A stretch of 64,000 bases of DNA from an uncultured virus (IMG/VR IMGVR_UViG_3300025632_000002) (Duplodnaviria > Heunggongvirae > Uroviricota > Caudoviricetes > Crassvirales), in IMG/VR virus record IMGVR_UViG_3300025632_000002; one strand, 5' to 3'. Positions 3,296 to 21,955 of the stretch are shown piece after piece. Made by a program: the position numbers and the translations under genes. Position 1 is the stretch's first letter; each line of letters begins with the position of its first letter. The notes under the pieces were generated by a model. That model was given only the letters and a program-made list of their open reading frames with translations. It had not been told where the DNA came from and ran no database searches.

Positions 3296-3517
3296 TTAGT
3301 CATTGTCTTTTTCATTGTGAGGTATAGCCGTTAGCCTTACTTCTTGCATATCTTTATGTGTGCCGCCCTTGAAGTCGGTACGTGTCCACGAGATAGCCTC
3401 AACTGTGAAGTCGTACAAGTCTTCGTACAGCGTGGTGTCGTGTACCTCGATAACGACCTGCGCATCATCTCGAAGGTCTTTGATTAATTCAACTAATTCT
3501 TTCTTCGTCATTGTCAA
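3296..3517 (-). CDS. Hypothetical phage protein
   Basis: 73-aa ORF; its leader AACCAATTGACAATG is shared with the 3964..4290 gene. Confidence 0.75.
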   Translation of the reverse strand: MTMTKKELVELIKDLRDDAQVVIEVHDTTLYEDLYDFTVEAISWTRTDFKGGTHKDMQEVRLTAIPHNEKDND

Positions 3518-3544
3518 TTGGTTTATGTGTCGAGTCCGACACTA

Positions 3545-3871
3545 TTATAGATTGTCTTTCACTCCGTTATCCACTAACTTCTTTACGATGTAGTCAGGCA
3601 ACTCAAAGCACCCGTCGTACCCGTCTAAACTTGCGTTGCCGCTATCGTCCCACGATATCTCAAGCACCCCGCCCGCGTAGTAGTCACCACCGCCCGTCTC
3701 CTCGTCGTACGTCTCGTACCAACCACCATACGTATGGTCAGGGTCAATACCTATCTGTACGCTCATCACCACGTCGGTGTCTTCTCTCAAGACTGAGTCG
3801 TACGCAGTCTTCATACTCACATAAGGAAGTGTCTCCTTCCAATCGATTACCAGTTTTTTTTCTTTCATCAT
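3545..3871 (-). CDS. Acidic hypothetical phage protein
   Basis: 108-aa ORF downstream of an AT-rich promoter-like region. Confidence 0.8.
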   Translation of the reverse strand: MMKEKKLVIDWKETLPYVSMKTAYDSVLREDTDVVMSVQIGIDPDHTYGGWYETYDEETGGGDYYAGGVLEISWDDSGNASLDGYDGCFELPDYIVKKLVDNGVKDNL

Positions 3872-3904
3872 AGTATTAGCGTTTTTAATTCCGTTTCGAT
3901 TTAT

Positions 3905-3945
3905 ATGTAAATATAGTTCAATTAATCCTTAATTCCTAATTATTT
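3905..3945 (-). promoter_or_regulatory. Putative early promoter (TAATTAGGA..N..ACTATATTTACA)
   Basis: Similar to 6094-6132; resembles a Bacteroidota -7 box variant. Confidence 0.5.
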
Positions 3946-3963
3946 CTCTCTTTTCTTACGCAG

Positions 3964-4290
3964 TCAGAACAACCCATCATCCTTGAACCTGTGATAATCA
4001 TCACACCCTCGTTCGTCATCACCATACTCAGCCTCCGAATCCTTTCTCTCGAACCACATCAGCACCAAGTCCTCAGATACGCCCGCCTCCCTCGCTATCT
4101 CAAGCGCGGTGTCTTCCTCCTCGCCCGCATCCATCCACAGAACCTCGCGCTCGTTATAAGCCAAGCAAGGCACTACCCCTTGCCCCCTCGCCCATCGCTC
4201 TATCTCTGAGACGGACATTTCCAACTCTATTTGCTCGGTAGCCCAGCCCAAGTCCCTATACAGCTTTGCATATACTATCCACATTGTCAA
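3964..4290 (-). CDS. Acidic hypothetical phage early protein
   Basis: 108-aa ORF; leader shared with 3296..3517. Confidence 0.75.
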   Translation of the reverse strand: MTMWIVYAKLYRDLGWATEQIELEMSVSEIERWARGQGVVPCLAYNEREVLWMDAGEEEDTALEIAREAGVSEDLVLMWFERKDSEAEYGDDERGCDDYHRFKDDGLF

Positions 4291-4326
4291 TTGGTTTTTT
4301 GTGTCGACCCCGACACAGGTTTAAAT

Positions 4327-4377
4327 TAGAAGGGTGCAAGACCTCGCGACCTTGTGACGCTCACTTGAGCCACCCTT
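4327..4377 (-). ncRNA. tRNA-like structured element C (closing stem AAGGGTG/CACCCTT enclosing two hairpins)
   Basis: Perfect 7-bp closing stem; GCTC-AAGT-GAGC hairpin; 7-bp stem with GCGA tetraloop; 6 nt after the stop at 4384. Confidence 0.5.
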
Positions 4378-4383
4378 GGGGAA

Positions 4384-4719
4384 TCAGTCCGCCAAGAACA
4401 CGTCCAACAGAGCACCCTTCTTCGAGGTCTGACCTTCGTGGTCTAATTCGCTCGCCTCGTTGTACTTATCCCAATACCACCGAGTGAATGGCTCCAACTC
4501 CTCCACGCCCCATATATTGATGGTGTGCCGCGACCCGTCATCGGCAATGCCAATCAGATACAACACGCAATCGATGCGGGTGAGTGAGTGCCTCGACAAC
4601 TGCAACCGATGCTCCAAGCGGAACGAGTTGCCGTCACGCTCCAAGAGCAAGTCCCTGTAGTCTAACCCCACCACGTCCATCTTGTCCAAACGCCCCAACA
4701 AATCATTGATACTATCCAT
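4384..4719 (-). CDS. Hypothetical early protein (MDSINDLL...)
   Basis: ORF track 4384..4845; ATG at 4719 is the plausible start because the upstream part is structured intergenic DNA. Confidence 0.75.
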   Translation of the reverse strand: MDSINDLLGRLDKMDVVGLDYRDLLLERDGNSFRLEHRLQLSRHSLTRIDCVLYLIGIADDGSRHTINIWGVEELEPFTRWYWDKYNEASELDHEGQTSKKGALLDVFLAD

Positions 4720-4761
4720 ATCTCTACTGTATTTTGTGTCGACACCGACACTGATTAAAAT

Positions 4762-4810
4762 TAGAAGGGGAGAGAGGATTCGAACCTCCCGAAGCACCAA
4801 GCCTCCCCTT
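4762..4810 (-). ncRNA. tRNA-like element B (acceptor stem plus T-arm, no anticodon arm)
   Basis: AAGGGGAG...GGAGG-TTCGAAT-CCTCT-CTCCCCTT-CTA; canonical T-loop; 6 nt after the stop at 4817. Confidence 0.65.
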
Positions 4811-4816
4811 GAAGGC

Positions 4817-5569
4817 TTACGCCTCGACCTCGAGAGGAGCAACAACCCCGAGGGATTGCGCTACCTTCTCGAACATCGCAAGCAATGCCTGTTGGTTGCC
4901 ATTGAACGACTTGACGCTGCCGTCATCGTTGAAGTGAATCGAGCCGCTCACCGCATCAGTCGAGACAACGAACTGAGCAGCGACTCCCGCCATCTCCTCG
5001 TCGCTGAACTCCTCACCTTCACCCTCGCCATCACCCTCAGACTCCGCAACCGCCTCCTCCTTCACAGGAACTGCCGCCGCTGGCTTCTCCGCCTTCATCC
5101 AAGCGTTGTACGAGTCCACATCCAAAGCGCATCGCTCATCCAAAGCAAGCATCGCATCCCGATACAGCACGAACTCAGCACCCGAGTCAGCGTCTCCAAT
5201 CAGGAACGACCCAGCCGTAGCGTGGCGGTGGAAGTAGGACTTGCTCATCTCGATGGCAACCCACAACCGCTCCCGCTCCTCCTTGACCTTGCGCCCGTCA
5301 GCCTTGATGAAAGCTTTGAACTCAGGAGCATTGAACGCCTCCAAGCGAGCCGACAGCAACGTGCCAAGCTTCAGCGACTTGTGGAACATATCCACCGAGC
5401 CTTTCTTGATGCTCTCGTTCAACTTGACAATCGGAGCAGTCGCTCGCAACGCCTTGAGCGTAGCCTTGACCTCAGCCGATTGTGTCGGAGCCGACACAGA
5501 CTGAGCGTTTGACTTAGTACCTTCTGCAACCTTTGCGGTGGTTGCGACCTTGTTTGTTGTTTGCTTCAT
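4817..5569 (-). CDS. Early protein with basic N-terminus, possible HTH and acidic C-terminal linker
   Basis: ORF track 4817..5782; ATG at 5569 (MKQTTNK); LWVAIEMSKSYFHRH segment looks HTH-like (inference). Confidence 0.8.
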   Translation of the reverse strand: MKQTTNKVATTAKVAEGTKSNAQSVSAPTQSAEVKATLKALRATAPIVKLNESIKKGSVDMFHKSLKLGTLLSARLEAFNAPEFKAFIKADGRKVKEERERLWVAIEMSKSYFHRHATAGSFLIGDADSGAEFVLYRDAMLALDERCALDVDSYNAWMKAEKPAAAVPVKEEAVAESEGDGEGEGEEFSDEEMAGVAAQFVVSTDAVSGSIHFNDDGSVKSFNGNQQALLAMFEKVAQSLGVVAPLEVEA

Positions 5570-5606
5570 AGCAGTATTAGATTTGTGGGCTTTGCCCGAT
5601 TTTAAT

Positions 5607-5655
5607 TGGAAGGAGTTAGGGACTCGAACCCTACGCGCACCGACTGCGACCCCTT
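5607..5655 (-). ncRNA. tRNA-like element A (acceptor stem, D-like hairpin, T-arm, CCA; no anticodon arm)
   Basis: AAGGGGT-CGCAGTCGGTGCG-CG-TAGGG-TTCGAGT-CCCTA-ACTCCTT-CCA; 6 nt after the stop at 5662. Confidence 0.7.
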
Positions 5656-5661
5656 GGTAGA

Positions 5662-6048
5662 TTACTTGAGCGACTGCGCGATGTCTAAAGCATACAAATC
5701 GGCTATCAAATCCGATTTCGTTTCCCATTGCTCCGAGACCTCGATGTCCCATATAATCTCTTTGTTCACAATATCGCAACACTCGTTGCTGTCAATTGTC
5801 CAATAGTCAGTCACGCATCCGTCAAGGAATATCTCAGCGTGGATGTTCACCCCGCTGTATCTATACCCCGAACCCGTCTTCGTAACCTTGGCTCCAAACC
5901 GCTTCAATCTATTGCTCAAGCTATTTGTGTTCTTGACTCGACTGAACTTCGATAGGTATGCCTTGCGTGTCAACTTACCATCTCGGTACTCTTGGTTGAC
6001 CACCTCAAGCATATCGTTGATGTTTGGTATGTGTTCGTTGGGTGTCAT
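5662..6048 (-). CDS. First early gene, hypothetical (MTPNEHIP...)
   Basis: ORF track 5662..6099; ATG at 6048 lies downstream of the promoter-like element. Confidence 0.75.
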   Translation of the reverse strand: MTPNEHIPNINDMLEVVNQEYRDGKLTRKAYLSKFSRVKNTNSLSNRLKRFGAKVTKTGSGYRYSGVNIHAEIFLDGCVTDYWTIDSNECCDIVNKEIIWDIEVSEQWETKSDLIADLYALDIAQSLK

Positions 6049-6093
6049 TGGTCTGTGTGGGTTTGTGGGGTTCCCCCCTTGGTTTGAATTATG

Positions 6094-6132
6094 GTGCAAT
6101 ATAGTATTAATATCAGTTCAATCCTAATTAAT
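6094..6132 (-). promoter_or_regulatory. Putative main early promoter (TAATTAGGA..N..ACTATATTGCA)
   Basis: Heads the minus-strand gene run; TATATTGCA -7-like box; similar to 3905-3945. Confidence 0.55.
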
Positions 6133-6542
6133 CAGAAGAAAACTTCATTTTAATTGCATCGACTCCAACAGCACCACAGCACGATTCAAGCACAGCACAC
6201 AGAGCGAGCAACAGCCGTTGCCCCCAATTCATTTGAGCGCGGAAGGGGAAGGGCGGGGGTTAAGGGAAGGCTCCCTCTCTCTCCCTTTCGTGGAGAGTGC
6301 AAGTCTGTGCCCTTGCATCCCCGCCATTTCGTGTCGGACTCGACACTGCACCGGAGCGTGTACCCTACCATCAACCGGTACAGGGTAGGCGGTTCGAACC
6401 GCTGAGGGAAAACGCCAAAAAATCGGGACAACGCTCGGCAATCCTTACCCCCTCCCCCGAAAAAAAAATCGGTTTCCATTTCGAGGCGCGTCGCGTAATG
6501 TGTATATATAGCCCCCTTGCTTTCGGTATCTCGAAAAAGAAT

Positions 6543-6550
6543 TACCTTTG
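6543..6550 (+). promoter_or_regulatory. Bacteroidota -7 promoter box TACCTTTG
   Basis: Matches TAnnTTTG just before ATG 6554; the same box occurs at 8255, 10856, 12669, 31630, 35037, 35410 and 43238 (+) and at 10866 and 58442 (-), each before a gene start. Confidence 0.7.
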
Positions 6551-6553
6551 ACT

Positions 6554-6697
6554 ATGTCCTGGGAGCTTTCTATTCATAACCGCATTCACATCGGTTTTTG
6601 TTTTGGCTGGTCTTGGTACCCTAGGGATTCTGAGTTTGACCATTCAGAGTTTATTTTATTTTTTGGCTTGGTCAGCTTGAACTTAAAGATTTACTGA
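6554..6697 (+). CDS. Small hydrophobic hypothetical protein (47 aa)
   Basis: Read manually; follows a -7 box; TGATG coupling to the next ORF. Confidence 0.6.
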   Translation: MSWELSIHNRIHIGFCFGWSWYPRDSEFDHSEFILFFGLVSLNLKIY

Positions 6698-6864
6698 TGT
6701 ACGGATTAAAAGTAAAGGATGGTCGTTTAGTTAACGACCGTTTACCTGGCGAGACTGGTATTGCTCAGGCTGCTCGTTATTGCAAAATGAAGAAGCGTTC
6801 TGAGAAAATATCGATGATTGCCGACGCTATTAATTTAGCTGATATGCGTGAAGGCGATATGTAA
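6697..6864 (+). CDS. Small hypothetical protein (MYGLKVKDGRLVNDR..., 55 aa)
   Basis: Read manually; coupled start; followed by a terminator. Confidence 0.65.
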   Translation: MYGLKVKDGRLVNDRLPGETGIAQAARYCKMKKRSEKISMIADAINLADMREGDM

Positions 6865-6900
6865 TTGGTTGTTTATTTTGTGTAGAGTTGTAGAGTTAAG

Positions 6901-6923
6901 AGAGGTCTGGGGGCCTCTTTTTT
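6901..6923 (+). terminator. Intrinsic terminator
   Basis: AGAGGTC-TGGG-GGCCTCT followed by a T tract. Confidence 0.65.
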
Positions 6924-6972
6924 CTTGCCCGTCTTTTTTGTGGGGTAAAAAATTTCGTTGATTTAGGCCAAA

Positions 6973-7162
6973 AGTGTAGAGAGTCTACACTAAAATGTAG
7001 AGTTTAAAAAAAGTCTACACAAAAAAATCCTAGTGTTTATGGTAGTTATAGAGTGAAGTGTTAAGAATGTTAAGTTTACTCTCTACTATAAGAGTTCAAG
7101 AAAAATATATATAGTAGTTATTGTCCATATATATATATAGGGAAAAAAGTCTACATTCTACA
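6973..7162. repeat. Origin-like element, copy 1 (TGTAGA/TCTACA repeats and AT run)
   Basis: About 100-bp imperfect direct repeat of 62183-62280, with an identical 17-mer AGTGTTAAGAATGTTAA at 7057 and 62183. Confidence 0.7.
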
Positions 7163-7197
7163 TTGGTGATGTTGTGTTGTAATTTGGCAAAAAAAAT

Positions 7198-8250
7198 ATG
7201 CGGCTCTTACTTTTCTTTTTCTTTTTCCCGTGCGTGGTTTTCTCACAAGACGTTTGCGGCACTTCGTATGATTCTTCTCTTTATTTATTTCCTTCTTCTC
7301 GTATTTCTAACGAATGGAAGGAGATACCTGTTGCGGTTCATATTTGTTATTCGGACAGTTTGGGGGGTTGGTTTAGCGAGGAGTATGTTGAGGAAGCGAT
7401 TGCTGATTTAAATGCTGATATGTCTGAGGCTATGATATCGGTTGATTTGGTTCACGTCGGCTATAAAGATTTGGAGGATTACAGTTGGTATGACAGCTAT
7501 GCTTTTAATCCTAACGGCAATTGGTGCTTTCCTTTTTTCGGTACTCAGAACAGTATTTTAGCTACGGACTTATCTCTTCCTGACTGGGACCCTAATTATC
7601 ATTGTAATATCTATGTGATACCAAAGATGTGCGCTGGGATACTGGGATGGTCTTACGTGACGGCTTCTGCTACGAATGCTCGCGACGGTATCTGGTTGCG
7701 TTCGGACATATTCGGTTTGGGCAGTGTTCACCCTCGCAATAACGAGAACAAAGTTTTGACTCACGAGATGGGTCATTACTGCGGTCTTCATCACGTTTTC
7801 CAATCTGTAAATTTCTGTGGTGATGACGGCGGCTTGCCTTGCGACGTTTGGGGAGATTTCGTTTGCGATACTCCTCCTACTAAGTTGCAATGGGAATGTG
7901 ACCCTCCTATGTGTCCCGAGTCTTTATATAATTATACTGCTGACAACCATATGGATTACTACCCTGACTCGTGTCGTCACCACTTTACGCCTGGTCAGGT
8001 GGACCGTATGCACGATATGTTGAGTTACCAGCGTGCGGGTTTATTTGGCGGCTACCCTATTTGTTTGGGCGACTGCAATGGCGATTATGTAGTTGGTATT
8101 TCTGACCTTATGCTTATCCTTTCGTGCTGGGGCTCTGCTGGCTGTTTAGACGGCGACATAAACCACAGCGGCTTAGTTGATATTTACGACTTGAATATGT
8201 TTTTGTCTTTGTACGGAACGATATGCGAGGGTAATATTTTGTGGAAATAG
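7198..8250 (+). CDS. Secreted zinc metalloprotease, M43 (pappalysin/ulilysin-like), with C-terminal dockerin-like EF-hand pair
   Basis: Signal-peptide-like N-terminus; HEMGHYCGLHH (HExxHxxGxxH); CDTPP; NHMDY Met-turn; GDCNGDYVVGISDL and GDINHSGLVDIYDL repeats. Confidence 0.85.
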   Translation: MRLLLFFFFFPCVVFSQDVCGTSYDSSLYLFPSSRISNEWKEIPVAVHICYSDSLGGWFSEEYVEEAIADLNADMSEAMISVDLVHVGYKDLEDYSWYDSYAFNPNGNWCFPFFGTQNSILATDLSLPDWDPNYHCNIYVIPKMCAGILGWSYVTASATNARDGIWLRSDIFGLGSVHPRNNENKVLTHEMGHYCGLHHVFQSVNFCGDDGGLPCDVWGDFVCDTPPTKLQWECDPPMCPESLYNYTADNHMDYYPDSCRHHFTPGQVDRMHDMLSYQRAGLFGGYPICLGDCNGDYVVGISDLMLILSCWGSAGCLDGDINHSGLVDIYDLNMFLSLYGTICEGNILWK

Positions 8251-8282: not shown

Positions 8283-9908
8283 ATGTTTACACCTAAGAAT
8301 ATCGTCTTTGACGAGGATGGCCGTTCAAAGTTGCGCGAAGGCATTACGAAGATGTCTAAAGCTGTCAAGAGCACTTTGGGTCCTAGCGGCCAAACTGTTA
8401 TTATAGAATCGGAGCAGCATACTCACGGCATTACGGTCACTAAGGACGGCGTTACGGTTGCGAAATCTATCCACTTGCTGGACGCCGTTGAGAACTTGGC
8501 GGTACGCATTATGCGCGAGGCTTCGGAGCGTACGAGTACTCAGGCGGGCGACGGCACTACTACGGCTATCGTCTTGACGGAAGCTTTGATTAAGGTTACG
8601 GAGAGTTTTGTCAGCGACTATAGCGATATAAACAAGGCTGATTTCCTGCGGTTTCTTTCGGTATTGAGCGAGGATACCATAGCTAGGGTGGGGAGTTCGG
8701 CAGTTGAGCTTACGGACAAGAAGATGTTGGACGTGGCTACGATATCTTCAAATAACGACAGGGAGCTGGGCAAGATAATTTCTGACGTTTATCGGGCGGT
8801 CGGTGGTGACGGCGTGGTAACTGTGGAGAACGGTTTGCTTCCGTCTACGTATTACGAGGTTACTAAAGGTATGCGTTTTGAGCGTGGCTATACCTCTCCT
8901 CTTTTTGTAAATAACCACGAGACGGACGAGTGTGTTTTGGAGGACTGTTACGTTATGGTATGCGGCAACGAGATAAACAGCCCTTTGCAGCTGGAGGGCG
9001 TGTTAAAGGAAATTATCAGCGACAGGCATAAGTTGCTTTTGGTATCGCCTTGCTCTGTGAACTTCATTAATACGATGGCTGCTAACGTTATGAAAAACGG
9101 CATTAAGTTTTGCAACGTTAACCCTCCGCAATTTGGTTGGAAGCAGGAGGAGGTGATGAGCGACTTGGCGCTATCGCTGGGCGCTAAATATTTCTCTGAG
9201 AAGACGGGCGACGACTTGTCTTTAATTACGATGGCGGACCTCGGGTTTGCGAAGAAGGTAGTTGTGAAGCGCGACCATACCGTTGTTATGCGTGACGAGT
9301 CGAAGGTTGACCAAGGCGATATCGACCAGCGGGTAAAGGAGTTGCGGTCTGCTTTTGAGCATACAAATAAAAAAGACGAGAAGGATTTTTTCTTGGAGCG
9401 TATCGCGAGCTTGGCTGGCGGGGTCGGCGTTATTTATGTGGGCGGCAATACGGACTTGGAGCAGAAGGAGCGTTACGACAGGGTCGATGACGCGGTCTGT
9501 GCGGTTCGTTCTGCTTTGACCGAAGGTATTGTCCCTGGCGGCGGAGTGGCTTTGTTGGAGCAATCGTCTCGTTTGAGTGCTTATAGTTTGCGCAGAAAAA
9601 TTTCTAGCGAAGAGTCGTTAGCTGCTAAGGTCTTGTCGATTGCTTTGGAGGCTCCGTTTATTCAGATAATTACAAACGCTGGTATCGATTCGGAAGAGGT
9701 CCTTAATAAAGTTATAGATAGTCGCCGACGCGGATACGGCTTTAACGTAAAGACGCGTAAATATGGGAATATGATTCGCCAGGGCGTAGTTGACCCTGCT
9801 AAAGTTACTAAGAGCGCTTTACGCAACGCCGTTGCCGTCGCTACTACAATACTGAGTACCAATGCAATTATCACATCAGCCCGTACCTATGAGGAAGCTA
9901 GTAAATGA
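8283..9908 (+). CDS. groEL: Phage chaperonin GroEL
   Basis: TLGP, TKDGVTVAK, AGDGTTTA, GMRFERGY, EGIVPGGG and VDPAKVT motifs; no GGM tail. Confidence 0.97.
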   Translation: MFTPKNIVFDEDGRSKLREGITKMSKAVKSTLGPSGQTVIIESEQHTHGITVTKDGVTVAKSIHLLDAVENLAVRIMREASERTSTQAGDGTTTAIVLTEALIKVTESFVSDYSDINKADFLRFLSVLSEDTIARVGSSAVELTDKKMLDVATISSNNDRELGKIISDVYRAVGGDGVVTVENGLLPSTYYEVTKGMRFERGYTSPLFVNNHETDECVLEDCYVMVCGNEINSPLQLEGVLKEIISDRHKLLLVSPCSVNFINTMAANVMKNGIKFCNVNPPQFGWKQEEVMSDLALSLGAKYFSEKTGDDLSLITMADLGFAKKVVVKRDHTVVMRDESKVDQGDIDQRVKELRSAFEHTNKKDEKDFFLERIASLAGGVGVIYVGGNTDLEQKERYDRVDDAVCAVRSALTEGIVPGGGVALLEQSSRLSAYSLRRKISSEESLAAKVLSIALEAPFIQIITNAGIDSEEVLNKVIDSRRRGYGFNVKTRKYGNMIRQGVVDPAKVTKSALRNAVAVATTILSTNAIITSARTYEEASK

Positions 9909-10143
9909 TTGGCTTACGGACATAGGGGAGGAATCTCTTTTTGCTGACGGATTTGACGACGCTATTATCGGCTTGTCGTATGACCCGCTTGCGGATAGCT
10001 ACCGTGTGTGTTACAGCATTGACAAGTGCTACGATTGTTTGGTAAAGGACGACGAGATGTCTTTTGACGAAGCCATCGAGTATTTTGAGTATAACGTCAT
10101 CGGCTCGTATATGGGTCCTAAGACACCAATTTTTGTAATATGA
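9889..10143 (+). CDS. Conserved phage hypothetical (ADGFDDAIIG...EYFEYNVIGSYMG.KTP)
   Basis: Recognisable phage motif; overlaps the groEL stop and the groES start. Confidence 0.8.
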   Translation: MRKLVNDWLTDIGEESLFADGFDDAIIGLSYDPLADSYRVCYSIDKCYDCLVKDDEMSFDEAIEYFEYNVIGSYMGPKTPIFVI

Positions 10144-10397
10144 AGCCAATCAATAAATACCTTGTCATCGACCCTATCGACGAACAGTTTGTTTCTTCGT
10201 CTGGCTTGATTTTATCTACGGAAGACGCTAAATCGTTTCGCTATAAAAAAGCTACGGTAGTAGAGTCTGGCACTCAGATAGATACGATACATAAAGGCGA
10301 CGTTATCTATTACGACAAGAACGCTGGTCACTCTATGATGATAGGCGACGTTACGTACACTATCATTCTTGAGAGGGACGTTGTTGTTGTCGTATAG
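10140..10397 (+). CDS. groES: Co-chaperonin GroES
   Basis: MKPINKYLVI, SSGLIL mobile loop, KGDVIYY and ERDVVVV; adjacent to groEL. Confidence 0.9.
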   Translation: MKPINKYLVIDPIDEQFVSSSGLILSTEDAKSFRYKKATVVESGTQIDTIHKGDVIYYDKNAGHSMMIGDVTYTIILERDVVVVV

Positions 10398-10879: not shown

Positions 10880-11035
10880 ATGGCTGGACGCACTAAAAAA
10901 ACTGGCAATAAGATTTGCCCTTCGGGAATCGCTTGGGCGAAGCGGACTTTTGACCGTTACCCTTCGGCGTATGCGAATATGGCAGCTAGTAAATATTGCA
11001 AAGACCCTAACTACGCTAAAAAATCCAAGAAATAA
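10880..11035 (+). CDS. Small basic phage protein (AKRTFDRYPSAYAN motif, DUF5872-like)
   Basis: Read manually, 51 aa; PSAYAN motif recognised. Confidence 0.75.
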   Translation: MAGRTKKTGNKICPSGIAWAKRTFDRYPSAYANMAASKYCKDPNYAKKSKK

Positions 11036-11714: not shown

Positions 11715-12133
11715 TGGCTAAGAAAGAAAGAGTCGCTAAAACCGACAAGTATGGTGTTCAGACATCACGTGTTTCAAAAGGAAAGGGAGTGAAAGGTTAC
11801 GGAACGACAAAAAAATACCGTAGCAAAACTATTCAAACTATTCGCGAAGGCGACAAGGGTGGTGCGGATAATCTAGGCAGGCGCGGGGTTTTAACTCGCC
11901 AAAGAGGAAGTGCCGAAGGAGGTAAAATTGCTAGAAAGACTGTAAACAGGTCAGTAAATGCTGATGCGGGAACGGTTAAAAAAACCAAATACGTCTATAA
12001 GAAGAAGACCAGTACTCTGAAGGAAAGTGAAAAGTCGAAAACCATTGGTAAAAAAAGAGCTACAAAAAAACTCAGTCGTATGGCGGCTAAGCAAGACCGT
12101 ATGGACAAGCGCACCGCAAAAAAGCGTAAGTAA
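11714..12133 (+). CDS. Lys/Arg-rich protein
   Basis: 139-aa ORF; starts MAKKE like the 11038 gene. Confidence 0.75.
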   Translation: MAKKERVAKTDKYGVQTSRVSKGKGVKGYGTTKKYRSKTIQTIREGDKGGADNLGRRGVLTRQRGSAEGGKIARKTVNRSVNADAGTVKKTKYVYKKKTSTLKESEKSKTIGKKRATKKLSRMAAKQDRMDKRTAKKRK

Positions 12134-12376: not shown

Positions 12377-12667
12377 ATGGCGAATAAGAGCAAGATGAAA
12401 TGCAACAGCCCTACTCGGTCGGACCGAGCGGGGAAGAAGATGATGGTCAAAGCTTGCTCTGGCGGCAAAGAGAAGCTCATTCATTTCGGCGCCAAGGGTT
12501 ATGGACATAACTATTCTGCTGCTGCGCGTAAGAGCTTTAAAGCTCGTCATAAGTGTGGGACGGCTACCAATAAACTTACGGCGCGTTACTGGGCTTGCAA
12601 AAAGTTGTGGGCTGGTAAGGGCGGTTCTAAGAAGAGCTCTCCGTCCAATAGGCGTGGGAAATATTAA
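12377..12667 (+). CDS. Small basic phage protein (IHFG...RKSFKARHKC...ARYWAC..LW)
   Basis: 96-aa ORF; motif recognised as common in aquatic phages. Confidence 0.8.
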   Translation: MANKSKMKCNSPTRSDRAGKKMMVKACSGGKEKLIHFGAKGYGHNYSAAARKSFKARHKCGTATNKLTARYWACKKLWAGKGGSKKSSPSNRRGKY

Positions 12668-16300: not shown

Positions 16301-19300
16301 GCTGCTTATAACAAGTTAACTTCTGCTCCATACAACTGGACTATTGTCGATTTGGGTGGCGTTCCTGTAGGGAACCTACTTTTGGACACTAGTTACGGTA
16401 GCGGAGCTGAGGCTGCTTACTCGGTCCGTAAGTTGCGCACCGCGTACACAGGGCCCGCTATGAAGGTCCAGGACACCGTAGGAGGTGCTACGCAGGACAT
16501 TTACTTCGATGCCAACAACAACCTTGACGAGGCTGCCATAATCTCTTATGGAGGCTCTAACGACGTTTTCGTAGAGACCTGGTACGACCAGTCAATCAAC
16601 GGCAATGATGCTACACAGGGTACGTCCGCTAATCGCCCTAAGATTTATGATGGCACAACTGGCGCGTTGGTGAAGGAGAGCGGAAAGGTTGCAATCGATT
16701 TTGACGGTAGCAATGACAATTTTGACAACAGCACCGTAACGCTCACAAGTAACGACACCCTAATAAGTGTTGTATCTAAAATAGAAACCACAAGCACGGC
16801 GGTAAATATTTTTGATAGTAGCGAAAGCAATAAGTTTTTTTTGCAAATTGATGCTTCAAAAAACTTCCAATTTAGTAATGGTTCAGGTACTAATTTGAAT
16901 CATAAAAATGACGGATTTAGATATTTAACAAGTTTAGATTTTAACGGAGCAACTTTAAAGAGTTATTTTAACGGATATAATACAAAAACCGCAACCGTCT
17001 CAAATCAATCTCGAAGCGGTTTGAGAATTGGTAAACACCGCGAAAGCTCAGCGGGTTGGATTGATGGAACAATGCAGGAATTGATTTACTGGAATCAAAA
17101 TAAGAACGCAAACCACACCAGCATCGAATCCAACGTCGGCGACTACTTCACCCAAAACACGCCACTACTCGACACGTATACAGGAGCGGCGGCGGCGTAC
17201 TCACTACGCAAGCTATCAAGCTCGTACAGCGGTAGCGCGATCCGCGTCCGTAGGTCGTCAGACAACACCGAGCAAGATATAAATTTCAACGTATTCGGTG
17301 AGCTTGATACCGTTTCGCTTTTGGACTTCGCAGGTGCGGGAGATGCGTTCGTGAAAACTTGGTATTCACAGACGGGAAGCAACGACGCGACGCAGACGGC
17401 GACGGGTTCACAGCCGAAAATCGTTTCAAGCGGTGCGGTTATAACGGAGAACGGGAAGCCCGCGGTGCAGTTTGACGGTAGCAACGATTTTGTTGCAACG
17501 TCAGACTTTACAGCAGAAGCCCAGCCGTTTTACTTTAGTATAGTCGCAACGCCGTCAGCAACTACTTTGTCGCGGTTTATTGACACTAACGGCACGGATA
17601 CAAACAACCGAATCAATATTACCTTATCGAACGGTTCGATATACGAAATGAACGCAGGTAATAGTATAAGTGGCGGCACAGCCACAACAACGCAACAACT
17701 ACTGACCGCAGACTTCGACACTACTAATTCATTCCTTTACAAAGACGGAGTTCAAATAATATCGGGAGACGCAGGTACGCGAAACATCGACAGCGTGAGA
17801 ATTGGAGCAAATAAAAACGGAATTCAGTCTTTGAACGGCACAATTCAAGAAGTTGTATTCTACAACTCCGACCAATCCAGCAACCGCACAGGCATTGAAA
17901 CCAACATCAACACGTTCTACGACATCTATACTGAGCCTGTAGCGCCTTTGTTGTTGAATAACTATCCTGGTGCTGCTGCGGCTTACTCATTGCGTAGGAT
18001 TAACTCTAGCTATCAGGGTTCTGCTGTACTGGTGCAGACGGCCCTTAACACTAAGGGACCAGTCTATATCGGCTTTGATTCCAATAACGACTTGGACACT
18101 ACTTCATTGGCTACCTACGGAGGTAGCGAAGACGTGGTGGTAGCGGGATGGTTGGACCAGTCGGGCAACGGGAACGATGCCTCTCAAGCTACATCCGCTA
18201 ATCGTCCTAAGATTTACGACGGGACGACGGGCGTAGTAACGGAGAACGGGAAGCCTGCGTTGGATTTCACAAATACTGTAAATTTATTTTTGAAAAATTC
18301 GTCTGGTCAAAATTTATCAATAAGCGCAACAGATTATTCGTTCATATATGTTCAAAAAAGAGCATCTGCAACGGGATGGATTTTTGATAGTCAGACAGGG
18401 AGATTCGTTATAAGTTCGGGTAGTCCTTCAGGATTGTTTTTTGATGGGGCGTGGAAGGGAAGTCAACAAACAACAACAGCGCACGAAATTAATTATTTTG
18501 ATTTTGTCAGTCCTTCATCTACAAATTATTACGTTAATGGCTCACTAAACCAAGGGCCTTTAACCTACACGCAAAAAGCAATCGGAGGACTGACCGCAAT
18601 AGGCAAAGAGTATAGCGGTAGCGTACCAATGAATGGAACGTTGCAAGAGTTTATAATTTACACAACACCCCAAACATCCTACCGAACAGACATCGAAGAA
18701 AACATCGGCGGCTACTATGACATCCCGCTGGCTGGCTTGCTCGATGAGAACCCAGGAGCAGCTGCTGCTTATAGCTTGCGTAGACTAAGTTCAACCTACA
18801 CAGGCAGTGCTATACAGGTGCAGCGAGCTGACAACGTTGGTGGTACAACTGACATAGGCTTCGACTCTTATGGAGAGCTGGACACTACGGCCTTAACTAC
18901 AGCTGCTCAAGGGAATGATATGGTGGTGGCTACTTGGTATGACCAGAGTGGTAACAGCAACGATGCTACACAGGGTACGTCTGCTAATCGTCCGAAGATT
19001 TATGACGGGACTACGGGTGTAGTGACGGAGAACGGGAAGCCTGCGGTAGACTTTGGTGGCGGTAGGTTGGGTTTGACTTCGGCAACCTCAGTAACTCAAA
19101 CAAATATGAGTCTGTTTGCAATTAGCAAAACTTCTGACGTTGCTCAAGGCTTTTATAATGGCTTTATTTTTTACGCAAGGGACAACGCTAATTCTAATTA
19201 TCTTATCCTAAATGCGAATAGAGATGATAGAAGTATTAGTACACTTACCAAGGGAATCTCAGGTAGTTCTAATGATTTGACTTTCGATAATGTCGCAAAT

Positions 19301-21671: not shown

Positions 21672-21955
21672 TGGCTAAGCATACACACGTATTTAAGACG
21701 CCCGCCTTTTGGTTTGCCTTTAATAACGGCGAAGAAGTAAAGGGCAACCCGCGAAATAACTATGGGTATGCTAGCAAGGGTGAGCTCAGTACAGGGCAAG
21801 ATTATTTAGATATATTCGATACAGAAGAAGAAATGGCGGCTTATATCGACCTTCAGGTCGGAGAACCTGGGTGGTATTATAAGTGCGAAAACCGCATCCC
21901 TTATCCGCCCAATCCTAACGAGTGGGAATGTACTGAAGAAGAAGTAGCTCCGTAA
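21671..21955 (+). CDS. Hypothetical protein
   Basis: 94-aa ORF with TAATG coupling. Confidence 0.75.
   Translation: MAKHTHVFKTPAFWFAFNNGEEVKGNPRNNYGYASKGELSTGQDYLDIFDTEEEMAAYIDLQVGEPGWYYKCENRIPYPPNPNEWECTEEEVAP

What the first reader, a model, noticed from the sequence alone, without database searches (positions are those of the whole stretch)
4327..5655. Three anticodon-less tRNA-like elements, each exactly 6 nt after the stop codon of consecutive early genes
Seen: on the minus strand, the first three early genes (stops at 5662, 4817, 4384) are each followed by a 6-nt spacer and then a 46-48 nt element starting AAGGG and ending CCTT-C(C/T)AA. The 7-8 bp closing stems covary (AAGGGGT/ACTCCTT, AAGGGGAG/CTCCCCTT, AAGGGTG/CACCCTT). 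A and B have a canonical 5-bp T-arm with TTCGA(G/A)T loop abutting the closing stem and a short GG-containing D-like segment; A ends in CCA. C has a GNRA-capped hairpin in the T-arm position. None has an anticodon arm. Established: acceptor/T-arm mimics such as the tmRNA tRNA-like domain and mascRNA are substrates of RNase P and other tRNA-processing enzymes. Inference: either a punctuation system using host tRNA-processing enzymes to cut or stabilise the early polycistronic mRNA, or a source of small decoy RNAs against tRNA-binding defences. tRNA scanners would probably miss them.
Basis: partly seen in the sequence, partly recalled or inferred. Interest (0 to 1): 0.9.

Follow-up and report, generated by a model that had tools for sequence, protein, structure and literature searches.

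The report
tRNA-derived folds punctuating phage early genes
An uncultured marine phage ends its first three early genes with small conserved RNA folds, two of them cut-down copies of a proline tRNA, and related phages carry self-cutting ribozymes in matching places, so the folds probably mark where the early message is cut.

Summary
On the minus strand, elements A (5610-5655), B (4765-4810) and C (4330-4377) each start 6 nt after a stop codon and fold as three-way junctions. A and B carry a canonical T-arm. tRNA scanners and Rfam thresholds miss all three.

New here:
- B's 3' half is letter-identical to the 3' end of bacterial tRNA-Pro genes, so B is a tRNA-Pro-like gene without its anticodon arm. 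A is its paralogue.
- About 30 related marine contigs keep the elements far better than the flanking genes, with compensatory changes in the stems.
- The stop+6 spacing holds in 7 of 7 (A), 25 of 25 (B) and 13 of 19 (C) contexts.
- The "CCA" after A is not conserved, and C has no T-loop.
- A more distant relative has a hairpin plus a type III hammerhead after the homologue of gene 3, where the window has C. Two cultured relatives also have hammerheads beside early or intergenic stops.

Best reading (about 0.45): tRNA-shaped processing and end-protection signals for host RNase P/Z, doing in trans what hammerheads do in cis. No RNA ends could be mapped.

Earlier notes of this scan describe similar anticodon-less mimics in other phage genomes. 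My literature searches found no printed precedent in phages.

The parts
5662..6048 (-). Early gene 1 (128 aa, no known family). It is replaced by an unrelated gene in some relatives and absent in others.
   Evidence: ORF list; Pfam/PHROG none; alternative gene in L002, absent in G002
5656..5661 (-). 6-nt spacer between the gene 1 stop and element A (TCTACC; TCCACC or TCTACT in relatives)
   Evidence: 7 of 7 contexts have 6 nt
5610..5655 (-). Element A, an anticodon-arm-less tRNA-like fold: 7-bp acceptor-like stem, a 4-bp D-like hairpin with GG in its loop, and a 5-bp T-stem with loop TTCGAGT. Tail CCAA at 5606-5609.
   Evidence: Rfam mascRNA-menRNA 21 bits, below cut-off
5587..5598 (-). Small GC hairpin (GGGC-AAA-GCCC) followed by ACAAA, about 18 nt upstream of the gene 2 ATG
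   Evidence: conserved in relatives
4817..5569 (-). Early gene 2 (250 aa, no known family). It contains an internal copy of the GTGTCG-N4-CGACAC hairpin at 5482-5497.
4811..4816 (-). 6-nt spacer between the gene 2 stop and element B (GCCTTC; GGCGTT or GCCGTC in relatives)
   Evidence: 25 of 25 contexts have 6 nt
4765..4810 (-). Element B, a tRNA-Pro-derived anticodon-arm-less fold. The acceptor-like stem plus T-stem make 13 stacked pairs, the T-loop is TTCGAAT, and a remnant D-loop keeps GG. Tail CTAA at 4761-4764.
   Evidence: Rfam tRNA-Sec 24.3 bits, below cut-off
4736..4751 (-). Conserved hairpin GTGTCG-N4-CGACAC followed by AAAA, about 20 nt upstream of the gene 3 ATG
4384..4719 (-). Early gene 3 (111 aa). 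It is a homologue of the G004 gene that is followed by a hairpin plus hammerhead.
   Evidence: 27% identity, E 8e-05 in a single pairwise comparison
4330..4377 (-). Element C: a three-way junction of the same topology with tetraloops instead of a T-loop. It has a 7-bp closing stem, a 4-bp hairpin and a 7-bp hairpin capped GCGA. Tail CTAA at 4326-4329; spacer TTCCCC at 4378-4383.
4300..4317 (-). Conserved hairpin TGTGTCG-N4-CGACACA followed by AAAAA, upstream of gene 4 (ATG at 4284)
6067..6135 (-). Conserved AT-rich promoter-like block and the first GC hairpin (6067-6078) ahead of gene 1. A similar AT-rich block recurs at about 3900-3935, after gene 4.
   Evidence: conserved in relatives. Reading it as a host-type promoter rests on recalled consensus, not on a test.

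Best explanation
A, B and C are cis-acting RNA modules that mark the 3' boundary of the first three early cistrons of a crAss-related podophage whose cultured relatives infect Bacteroidota. A and B are degenerate tRNAs: tRNA-Pro-like, with the anticodon arm deleted but the acceptor stem, T-arm and D-loop GG kept. C is a derivative of the same junction shape without the T-loop.

I think the early leftward RNA is made as a multi-gene transcript and that the host's tRNA end-processing machinery treats each module as a pre-tRNA. RNase P would cut at the 5' base of the stem, 6 nt after the stop. RNase Z, or an RNase E-type enzyme, would cut at the conserved C|UAA AU-rich linker on the 3' side. The result would be single-gene mRNAs. 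The downstream piece would start just ahead of the conserved GTGTCG hairpin. The upstream piece would end either at stop+6 or with the nuclease-resistant tRNA-like cap.

This would be the trans-acting counterpart of the self-cleaving hammerheads that related phages carry in the corresponding slots.

Shown: the structures, their conservation and covariation, tRNA ancestry, fixed spacing, and positional correspondence to hammerheads.
Inferred: polycistronic transcription, cleavage, and which enzymes act.
For: 1. tRNA ancestry. 6 of 6 of those sampled are tRNA-Pro genes. The alignment shows a tRNA-Pro lacking its anticodon arm.

2. The T-loop varies only at its last two positions, as a true T-loop would. 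TTCGA and the D-loop GG are invariant across 12 A/B variants.

3. Selection on the fold. In a model-fitted A+B alignment, 99.4% of cells pair. 7 of 16 pairs change on both sides. The covariation score is 0.401 against 0.170 in shuffles (0 of 500 reach it). Slid controls pair only 43-73% of cells. C variants change the closing stem AU>GU>GC and the inner stem UG/CG.

4. Purifying selection. Nucleotide diversity is 0-0.1 across B against 0.15-0.45 in the flanking coding sequence, in 21 distinct sequences.

5. Spacing and context. The spacer is 6 nt in 7 of 7 A, 25 of 25 B and 13 of 19 C contexts, although spacer letters differ. All 13 spacer variants end in a pyrimidine, and the base after the stem is always C.

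6. Same slot, ribozyme instead.
- In G004, the homologue of gene 3 is followed by a hairpin plus a type III hammerhead (47.2 bits, E 3e-07).
- The gene before it is followed by a second hammerhead-shaped fold (z -4.1).
- Flavobacterium phage elemoF has one 13 nt before its first early gene (36.3 bits).
- Cellulophaga phage phi19:3 has a type I-shaped one starting at a stop codon (24.6 bits).

7. Perreault et al. 2011 (PMC3088659, passages read) proposed that hammerheads flanking prophage genes cut long transcripts into single-gene mRNAs.

8. A, B and C are not hairpin-plus-U terminators.
Against: - There is no RNA-end evidence. Low-depth metatranscriptome contigs bridge A (5544-5795) and C (4276-4426), so uncut RNA or DNA exists, and none covers B.
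- C and the positional counterpart in MW202828 have no T-loop. Elbow recognition therefore cannot be the common denominator.
- The stacked helix is 12 bp in A, 13 in B and 14 in C, whereas tRNA enzymes measure 12.
- If the GTGTCG hairpins are promoters, each gene is its own transcription unit and no punctuation is needed.
- In G004 the order is hairpin then ribozyme. In the window it is tRNA-like fold then hairpin.
- The similarity of gene 2 to the G004 gene that precedes the first hammerhead is not significant.
- Most of the covariation separates two paralogue groups, so it reflects few independent events, and the alignment was fitted to the model.
- The hammerhead hits are all below Rfam's cut-off. 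The same search at E<=1 also rings in 3 of 14 control genomes.
Confidence: 0.45

Rival explanations
1. The elements are passive 3'-end structures. They would act as compact, GC-rich exonuclease blocks or non-canonical terminators for each early transcription unit, with the next unit starting at the following hairpin. The tRNA ancestry would be incidental and no tRNA enzyme would be involved.
For: - Each element sits directly after a stop and just before a conserved hairpin plus an A-rich leader.
- C and the MW202828 element work without a T-loop.
- The 6-nt spacer is about the closest a structure can sit without being opened permanently by a terminating ribosome (established ribosome footprint; inference).
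- RNA-library contigs run across A and C.
Against: - No U-run follows the stems, and none of the three is called by the terminator scan.
- A plain stability element would not need invariant T-loop and D-loop GG letters, nor near-total primary-sequence conservation.
- Relatives place cleaving ribozymes, not just hairpins, in the slot.
Confidence: 0.2
2. The product that matters is the released 46-50-nt tRNA mimic itself. It would act as a decoy, sponge or cofactor for a host or defence protein that binds the acceptor/T-arm/elbow of tRNA. Its position in the mRNA would only be a way to express it early.
For: - Sequence conservation is stronger than the fold needs.
- The elbow letters are kept.
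- The relative MW202828 has a free-standing anticodon-arm-less tRNA at 637-697 that scores 37.2 bits on Rfam tRNA (cut-off 29), next to a tRNA with a 46-nt insertion.
- Earlier notes of this scan report similar mimics in other phages (unchecked leads).
Against: - C lacks the elbow but keeps position and conservation.
- No candidate partner is encoded nearby; Pfam and PHROG give nothing on genes 1-4.
- A decoy without an anticodon cannot distract anticodon nucleases (established specificity of that class; inference).
- No small RNA was observed.
Confidence: 0.13
3. The elements are conserved module boundaries. Together with the hairpins they would be recombination linkers that let early gene cassettes be swapped, as with the promoter/stem-loop cassettes (PeSLs) of T4-type phages. 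On this reading the elements are tRNA-gene relics kept by gene conversion rather than by an RNA function.
For: - Gene 1 is replaced by an unrelated gene with the junction exactly at the stop codon.
- Gene 1 plus A are absent in G002.
- Gene 3 is replaced in G003 with the junction at C's 5' edge.
- The elements are much less diverged than their flanks.
- The PeSL concept is in PMC2839356 and PMC4122927 (search listing and start of abstracts only).
Against: Compensatory changes keep the stems paired. That points to selection on a folded strand and not only on identity. This role is also compatible with, and not exclusive of, an RNA function.
Confidence: 0.12
4. B is a phage attachment site carrying the 3' part of a host tRNA-Pro gene.
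For: B shares 22 nt of identity with the tRNA-Pro T-arm plus acceptor strand.
Against: - No integrase was found among the ORFs scanned.
- The identity stops before positions 72/73.
- B also keeps the 5' acceptor strand and the D-loop remnant.
- There are three elements in tandem after stops.
- The cultured relatives are virulent podophages, and G002 is a complete genome with terminal repeats.
Confidence: 0.02

Closest known systems
t-elements of plant mitochondria (Forner et al. 2007, PMC1920247; abstract read)
   Same: These are tRNA-like folds without decoding function that sit at mRNA 5' or 3' ends. They are proposed as cis-signals for RNase P and/or RNase Z in forming mRNA ends.
   Different: They are organellar, not viral, and their transcript ends were mapped experimentally. 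Here there is a fixed stop+6 position and a clear tRNA-Pro origin, but no end mapping.
mascRNA / MEN-beta tRNA-like elements (Rfam RF01684)
   Same: An acceptor/T-arm mimic embedded in a long transcript. Element A's best Rfam hit is this model (21 bits). That RNase P and RNase Z cut mascRNA out of its transcript is recalled knowledge.
   Different: That family is eukaryotic and nuclear. The score is below the cut-off of 42.5, so A is not a member. There is no triple-helix partner here.
Hammerhead ribozymes flanking genes in prophages and phages (Perreault et al. 2011, PMC3088659; passages read)
   Same: Small structured RNAs between phage genes, proposed to cut long transcripts into gene-length mRNAs. 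Relatives of this phage carry them in the corresponding slots.
   Different: A, B and C have no hammerhead core and no Rfam ribozyme hit. Any cleavage would need a host enzyme.
tRNA genes co-transcribed with mRNAs and RNase P cleavage inside bacterial operons (recalled knowledge; not tested or read here)
   Same: Host tRNA-processing enzymes separate RNA segments of one transcript.
   Different: Those are functional tRNAs or unstructured sites. Here the elements cannot decode, because they have no anticodon arm.
PeSL promoter/stem-loop cassettes of T4-type phages (PMC2839356, PMC4122927; listing and abstract starts only)
   Same: Short conserved regulatory motifs repeated before early genes, at which genes are swapped between close relatives.
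   Different: PeSLs are promoter plus terminator-like stem-loops. No tRNA-derived fold is described for them in what I saw.

Membership tests
tRNA (Rfam RF00005 clan / ARAGORN) | 7-bp acceptor stem closing the molecule | tested here: met
   A has 7 bp, B 7-8 bp and C 7 bp
tRNA (Rfam RF00005 clan / ARAGORN) | 5-bp T-stem with a 7-nt T-loop TTCRANN abutting the acceptor 3' strand | tested here: met
   Met for A and B. Not met for C, which has tetraloops.
tRNA (Rfam RF00005 clan / ARAGORN) | Anticodon arm | tested here: not met
   Only 2 nt lie between the D-like hairpin and the T-arm
tRNA (Rfam RF00005 clan / ARAGORN) | Score above the family threshold or a call by a tRNA finder | tested here: not met
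   ARAGORN finds 0 genes in the window. The best hit in the tRNA clan is 24.3 bits against a cut-off of 47.
mascRNA-menRNA (RF01684) | Score at or above the gathering cut-off of 42.5 bits | tested here: not met
   A scores 21 bits, E 0.24-0.7
t-element-type processing signal | tRNA-like fold at the boundary of an mRNA | tested here: met
   The folds start 6 nt after stops and lie 30-60 nt before the next start
t-element-type processing signal | RNA 5'/3' ends coincide with the fold's boundaries; cleavage by RNase P/Z | not testable with these tools
   Only assembled metatranscriptome contigs were available, and these cannot show ends
Intrinsic (hairpin + U-run) terminator | GC-rich stem followed within 0-2 nt by a T-rich run | tested here: not met
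   No minus-strand site at A, B or C in the scan of 3300-7300. The tails are CCAA or CTAA.
Hammerhead ribozyme | Conserved core CUGANGA ... GAAA around a three-way junction | tested here: not met
   No such core in A, B or C and no Rfam hit at E<=10. It is present in relatives' slots.
Phage attP carrying a tRNA 3' fragment | Adjacent integrase, and identity running to the tRNA 3' end | tested here: not met
   No integrase family among the ORFs scanned. The identity to tRNA-Pro ends before positions 72/73.
PeSL-like mobile regulatory cassette | Repeated conserved motif at the junctions where genes are gained, lost or replaced | tested here: met
   Gene 1 replaced or absent, and gene 3 replaced, with junctions at the elements
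PeSL-like mobile regulatory cassette | Motif contains an early promoter | tested here: inconclusive
   The GTGTCG-N4-CGACAC-AAAA hairpins precede early genes, but no start sites are known

The most novel reading that the evidence does not exclude
A lineage of marine Bacteroidota phages has turned a tRNA-Pro gene, stripped of its anticodon arm, into a portable 'cut here' signal placed exactly 6 nt after stop codons. Host RNase P/Z would then dice the early message. Sister lineages solve the same problem with hammerhead ribozymes in the same slots. That would be a natural, interchangeable pair of trans (tRNA-like) and cis (ribozyme) mRNA punctuation devices. The 6-nt spacer would be tuned to leave just enough 3' RNA for normal translation termination after cutting.
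Probability: 0.3. Interest if true: 0.85.

Novelty: new variant of a known kind. Interest (0 to 1): 0.7.

Why it matters
If true, this would be a phage counterpart of the mitochondrial "tRNA punctuation" and t-element principle. It would also be a natural precedent for the engineered tRNA- or ribozyme-flanked multi-gene transcripts used in synthetic biology.

It would give a concrete function to two things. One is the anticodon-less tRNA look-alikes that tRNA finders skip. The other is the long-unexplained hammerheads between phage genes. Both could be tested with simple in-vitro RNase P/Z and self-cleavage assays.

It also shows that tRNA-derived elements in phage genomes need not be decoding tRNAs or attachment sites.

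Tried and rejected
- DNA search of the region against deposited phages found no match. Protein searches with gene 3 and its G004 homologue against deposited phages also found none.
- The nearest held virus record, G001, does not contain the region.
- The generic three-way-junction descriptor is too permissive: 11 and 20 hits on the window's two strands. I dropped it as a significance test.
- RNA evidence was uninformative.
  - One run search and one lay gave only low-depth assembled contigs from 4 runs of one study.
  - The pieces bridge A and C, and none covers B. I draw no conclusion about transcription, ends or absence.
- The model of C (R2) does not detect the MW202828 element. Their relation rests on position, shared flanks and shape only.
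- The model of A (R1) gave 16-bit hits in Cellulophaga phages phi40:1 and Calle_2. These are parts of real tRNA-Ser genes in tRNA clusters, so I rejected them.
- A scan for the G004-type hairpin was too generic: 127 or more mostly unrelated loci. A scan for the MW202828-type hairpin found one unrelated in-gene match. A protein search for relatives of MW202828's gene found none.
- The giant 3510-aa ORF has no sequence match in the PDB and only a sub-threshold Pfam vRNAP_dom hit. Whether a virion RNA polymerase reads the early genes stays open.
- Literature searches for a printed precedent found none for anticodon-less tRNA-like folds after phage early genes. The library is limited to open-access papers and preprints.
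- The attP reading was considered and rejected (see rival explanations).
Full report
**What the window is**

The 64-kb window is nearly a whole genome of an uncultured podophage.
- Its terminase is 73.5% identical to the metagenomic phage MW202828. It is 44% identical to the Flavobacterium elemo phages and 32-39% identical to Cellulophaga and Tenacibaculum phages.
- It encodes GroEL/GroES, a crAss "muzzle" C-terminal domain, and a 3510-aa ORF with only a sub-threshold vRNAP-domain hit. The 3510-aa ORF has no PDB sequence match.
- Genes run leftward from about 6100 to 1, continuing at 64000-56585 with replication genes. They run rightward from 7198 to 56510.
- The finding lies in the first four leftward genes, whose region is GC-richer than the rest (0.53 against about 0.45).

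**Observation**

All three fold into the same three-way junction.

The fold energies are not unusual against shuffles. A generic descriptor of this topology hits 11 and 20 times on the window's two strands, so shape alone proves nothing.

The exact T-loop word GGTTCGANTCC occurs twice, only in A and B, against 0.06 expected. ARAGORN calls nothing and no Rfam family reaches threshold. The best sub-threshold hits are mascRNA-menRNA for A and tRNA-Sec for B.

**Relatives**

- A profile of gene 2 recovered 32 metagenome loci and 4 viral loci. One of the 32, L070, is the window's own contig.
- Hairpin and DNA searches added two complete genomes (G002, G004) and fragments.
- Among these there are 6 sequence variants of A, 6 of B and 6 of C. 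One extra regex hit, a GC-rich stretch upstream of gene 1, is not an element and was dropped.
- In 21 distinct sequences, diversity is 0-0.1 across B but 0.15-0.45 in the flanking genes.
- The few changes fall in stems and keep pairing:
  - A's T-stem pair goes A-U, G-U, G-C.
  - B's T-stem swaps AU and GC at two adjacent pairs. A third pair is GU, AU or GC, and is U-U in one sequence variant (found in two loci).
  - C's closing stem goes AU, GU, GC, and its inner stem swaps UG/CG while the loop changes from GCGA to UCGC.
- A covariance model built from A alone finds B at 26-30 bits and nothing else in 220 kb.
- On the resulting alignment, 99.4% of cells pair and 7 of 16 pairs change on both sides. 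No shuffle of 500 reaches the covariation score.
- Two caveats apply. The alignment is fitted to the model, and most double changes separate the two paralogues.

**tRNA origin**

- B's 22-nt T-arm plus acceptor strand is found exactly in at least 121 bacterial genome loci. 6 of 6 sampled are tRNA-Pro genes.
- The alignment shows B as a tRNA-Pro lacking part of the D-arm, the anticodon arm and the variable loop. The first acceptor pair is changed to A-U, and there is an extra A-U pair at the discriminator position.
- A shares the 5' AAGGGG, the D-loop GG, the T-loop and the tail with B.
- TTCGA is invariant. Only the last two loop positions vary, which is the pattern of a real T-loop.
- The "CCA" after A is not conserved.
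- C has the same junction layout but tetraloops. MW202828 has, after its gene 2 homologue (29% identity), a fold with a 7-bp closing stem, a 5-bp stem with a 7-nt non-T loop, and the same flanks. The C model does not detect it.

**Spacing**

- The spacer is 6 nt in 7 of 7 A contexts, although two unrelated genes precede A.
- It is 6 nt in 25 of 25 B contexts.
- In C it is 6 nt in 13 of 19 contexts. The others are 8 nt (3), 16 nt (2) and 5 nt (1).
- All 13 spacer variants end in C or T, and the base after the stem is always C.
- Where genes have been replaced, the junction is at the stop codon (L002) or at C's edge (G003). G002 lacks gene 1 and A altogether. The elements are therefore also module boundaries.

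**The hairpins**

- Each element is followed, after about 12 AU-rich bases, by a hairpin and an A-rich leader about 20 nt before the next ATG.
- The core GTCG-N4-CGAC occurs 15 times in the window against 0.74 expected. The full GTGTCG-N4-CGACAC form precedes early genes and also sits inside gene 2.
- MW202828 uses the same stem with its own loop (TTAA), including one in-gene copy. G004 uses a different palindrome (GGGGGGAC-N4-GTCCCCCC) in the same context.
- I cannot tell whether these are promoters, protein sites or 5' stabilisers. For the crAss-like phage phi14:2, no common motif was found upstream of early transcripts (preprint 10.1101/2020.03.07.982082, passages read).

**Hammerheads in the same slots**

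- In G004, the homologue of window gene 3 (27% identity over the full length, E 8e-05) is followed by the hairpin and a type III hammerhead. It scores 47.2 bits against a cut-off of 48.5, with E 3e-07.
- The preceding G004 gene is followed by a second hammerhead-shaped fold with the CUGAUGA...GAAAC core, one inserted U and a GUC site. It is not scored by Rfam, and its fold z-score is -4.1. That gene has the same place and size as gene 2, but the similarity is not significant.
- Flavobacterium phage elemoF has one 13 nt before its first early gene (36.3 bits).
- Cellulophaga phage phi19:3 has a type I-shaped one whose stem I includes a stop codon (24.6 bits).
- The window clade (G002, G003) and MW202828 have none.
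- All these scores are below Rfam's cut-off. The same search at E<=1 rings in 3 of 14 control genomes, so the weaker hits rest on the intact cores seen by eye.
- Perreault et al. 2011 proposed that hammerheads flanking prophage genes cut long transcripts into gene-length mRNAs.

**Interpretation**

The slot after early stop codons holds cleaving ribozymes in some lineages. In this lineage it holds tRNA-derived folds under strong sequence and structure constraint.

The most economical reading is that the folds recruit the host's tRNA-end enzymes to do the cutting and to leave protected ends. Plant mitochondrial t-elements are proposed to work this way (PMC1920247, abstract).

The terminator scan does not call the elements. 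No phage-encoded RNA-processing enzyme was found.

The case against is set out under Best explanation:
- no mapped ends, and uninformative RNA contigs;
- C's lack of a T-loop;
- stacks of 12, 13 and 14 bp;
- the unknown role of the hairpins.

I give the processing reading 0.45. The rivals are a passive end-structure or terminator (0.2), a released mimic acting in trans (0.13), pure recombination linkers (0.12) and attP (0.02).

**Earlier notes and precedent**

Earlier notes of this scan describe anticodon-less tRNA look-alikes, often with hammerheads, in early regions of other uncultured phages. One of them was read the same way. These are unchecked AI notes on other DNA and are not evidence here, but they suggest the pattern recurs.

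My own pattern scan found two further candidates in unrelated viral contigs:
- L337 at 500-547, 24.1 bits to the A model, with the same AAGGGG...CCUUUCUAA ends.
- L335 at 501-542, 19.4 bits.

I found no printed description of such elements after phage early genes. The library holds only open-access papers and preprints.

Noticed in passing
L043 (G004) 11902-11985 and 12378-12451, + strand: Two hammerhead ribozymes follow consecutive early genes of a related 61-kb phage, each just after a GGGGGGAC-N4-GTCCCCCC hairpin. One scores 47.2 bits on Rfam Hammerhead_3. The other is recognised by eye and by fold only.
   Followed up: yes
L084 (Flavobacterium phage elemoF, NC_055853.1) 17865-17921, minus strand: A type III hammerhead-like fold (36.3 bits, core CUGAAGA...GAAAC, GUA site) lies 13 nt upstream of the first early gene of a cultured phage. 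It is not annotated in the record.
   Followed up: partly
L348 (Cellulophaga phage phi19:3, NC_021789.1 record 21783-21827, minus strand): A type I-shaped hammerhead (24.6 bits) whose stem I includes the upstream gene's TAA stop. It lies about 40 nt before the next ATG.
   Followed up: partly
L001 (MW202828.1) 523-630 and 637-697, + strand: Two adjacent tRNA-like genes that ARAGORN misses but that score above Rfam's tRNA cut-off. One (47.3 bits) has a 46-nt insertion in the anticodon arm. The other (37.2 bits) has no anticodon arm at all.
   Followed up: partly
window 289, 1982, 3540, 4314, 4749, 5495, 6344, 59009, 63621 (centres): A 16-nt palindrome/hairpin GTGTCG-N4-CGACAC, usually followed by AAAA, recurs along the leftward genes, both upstream of starts and inside genes. 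Relatives keep the stem but use their own loop or a different palindrome. Its function is unknown.
   Followed up: partly
window 6100-6510, minus strand: A conserved, GC-rich stretch of about 400 nt, apparently non-coding and rich in hairpins, lies upstream of gene 1. It is about 80% conserved in relatives and is covered by the longest RNA-library contigs laid (for example 6223-6777). It may be an early non-coding RNA or leader.
   Followed up: no
window 6900-7060, + strand: Repeated GTGTAGA...TCTACAC hairpins with A-runs lie in the divergent control region ahead of the rightward genes. They are conserved in relatives, and G002 has the GTGTCG form there.
   Followed up: no
L042 (G002) 10940-11010, minus strand; also G003: After gene 4, relatives carry three small hairpins with 5-6-bp stems and 3-nt loops (GCCCA-TTT-GGGGC and similar) before a GTGTCG hairpin. 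The window lacks them.
   Followed up: no
L335 499-541 and L337 500-547, + strand: Unrelated viral contigs carry intergenic folds with an acceptor-like stem, a GGTGC remnant and a TTCGATT T-arm but no anticodon arm. L337 shares the AAGGGG start and the UCUAA tail with the window's elements.
   Followed up: partly
L102, + strand: A high-GC viral contig has GGGGGAC-N4-GTCCCCC hairpins directly after stops and just before ribosome-binding sites of four consecutive small genes. This is a similar 'hairpin punctuation' in an unrelated phage.
   Followed up: no
window 8283-10397 and 7198-8250, + strand: The phage encodes GroEL and GroES homologues and an M43-type metallopeptidase at the start of the rightward operon.
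   Followed up: no
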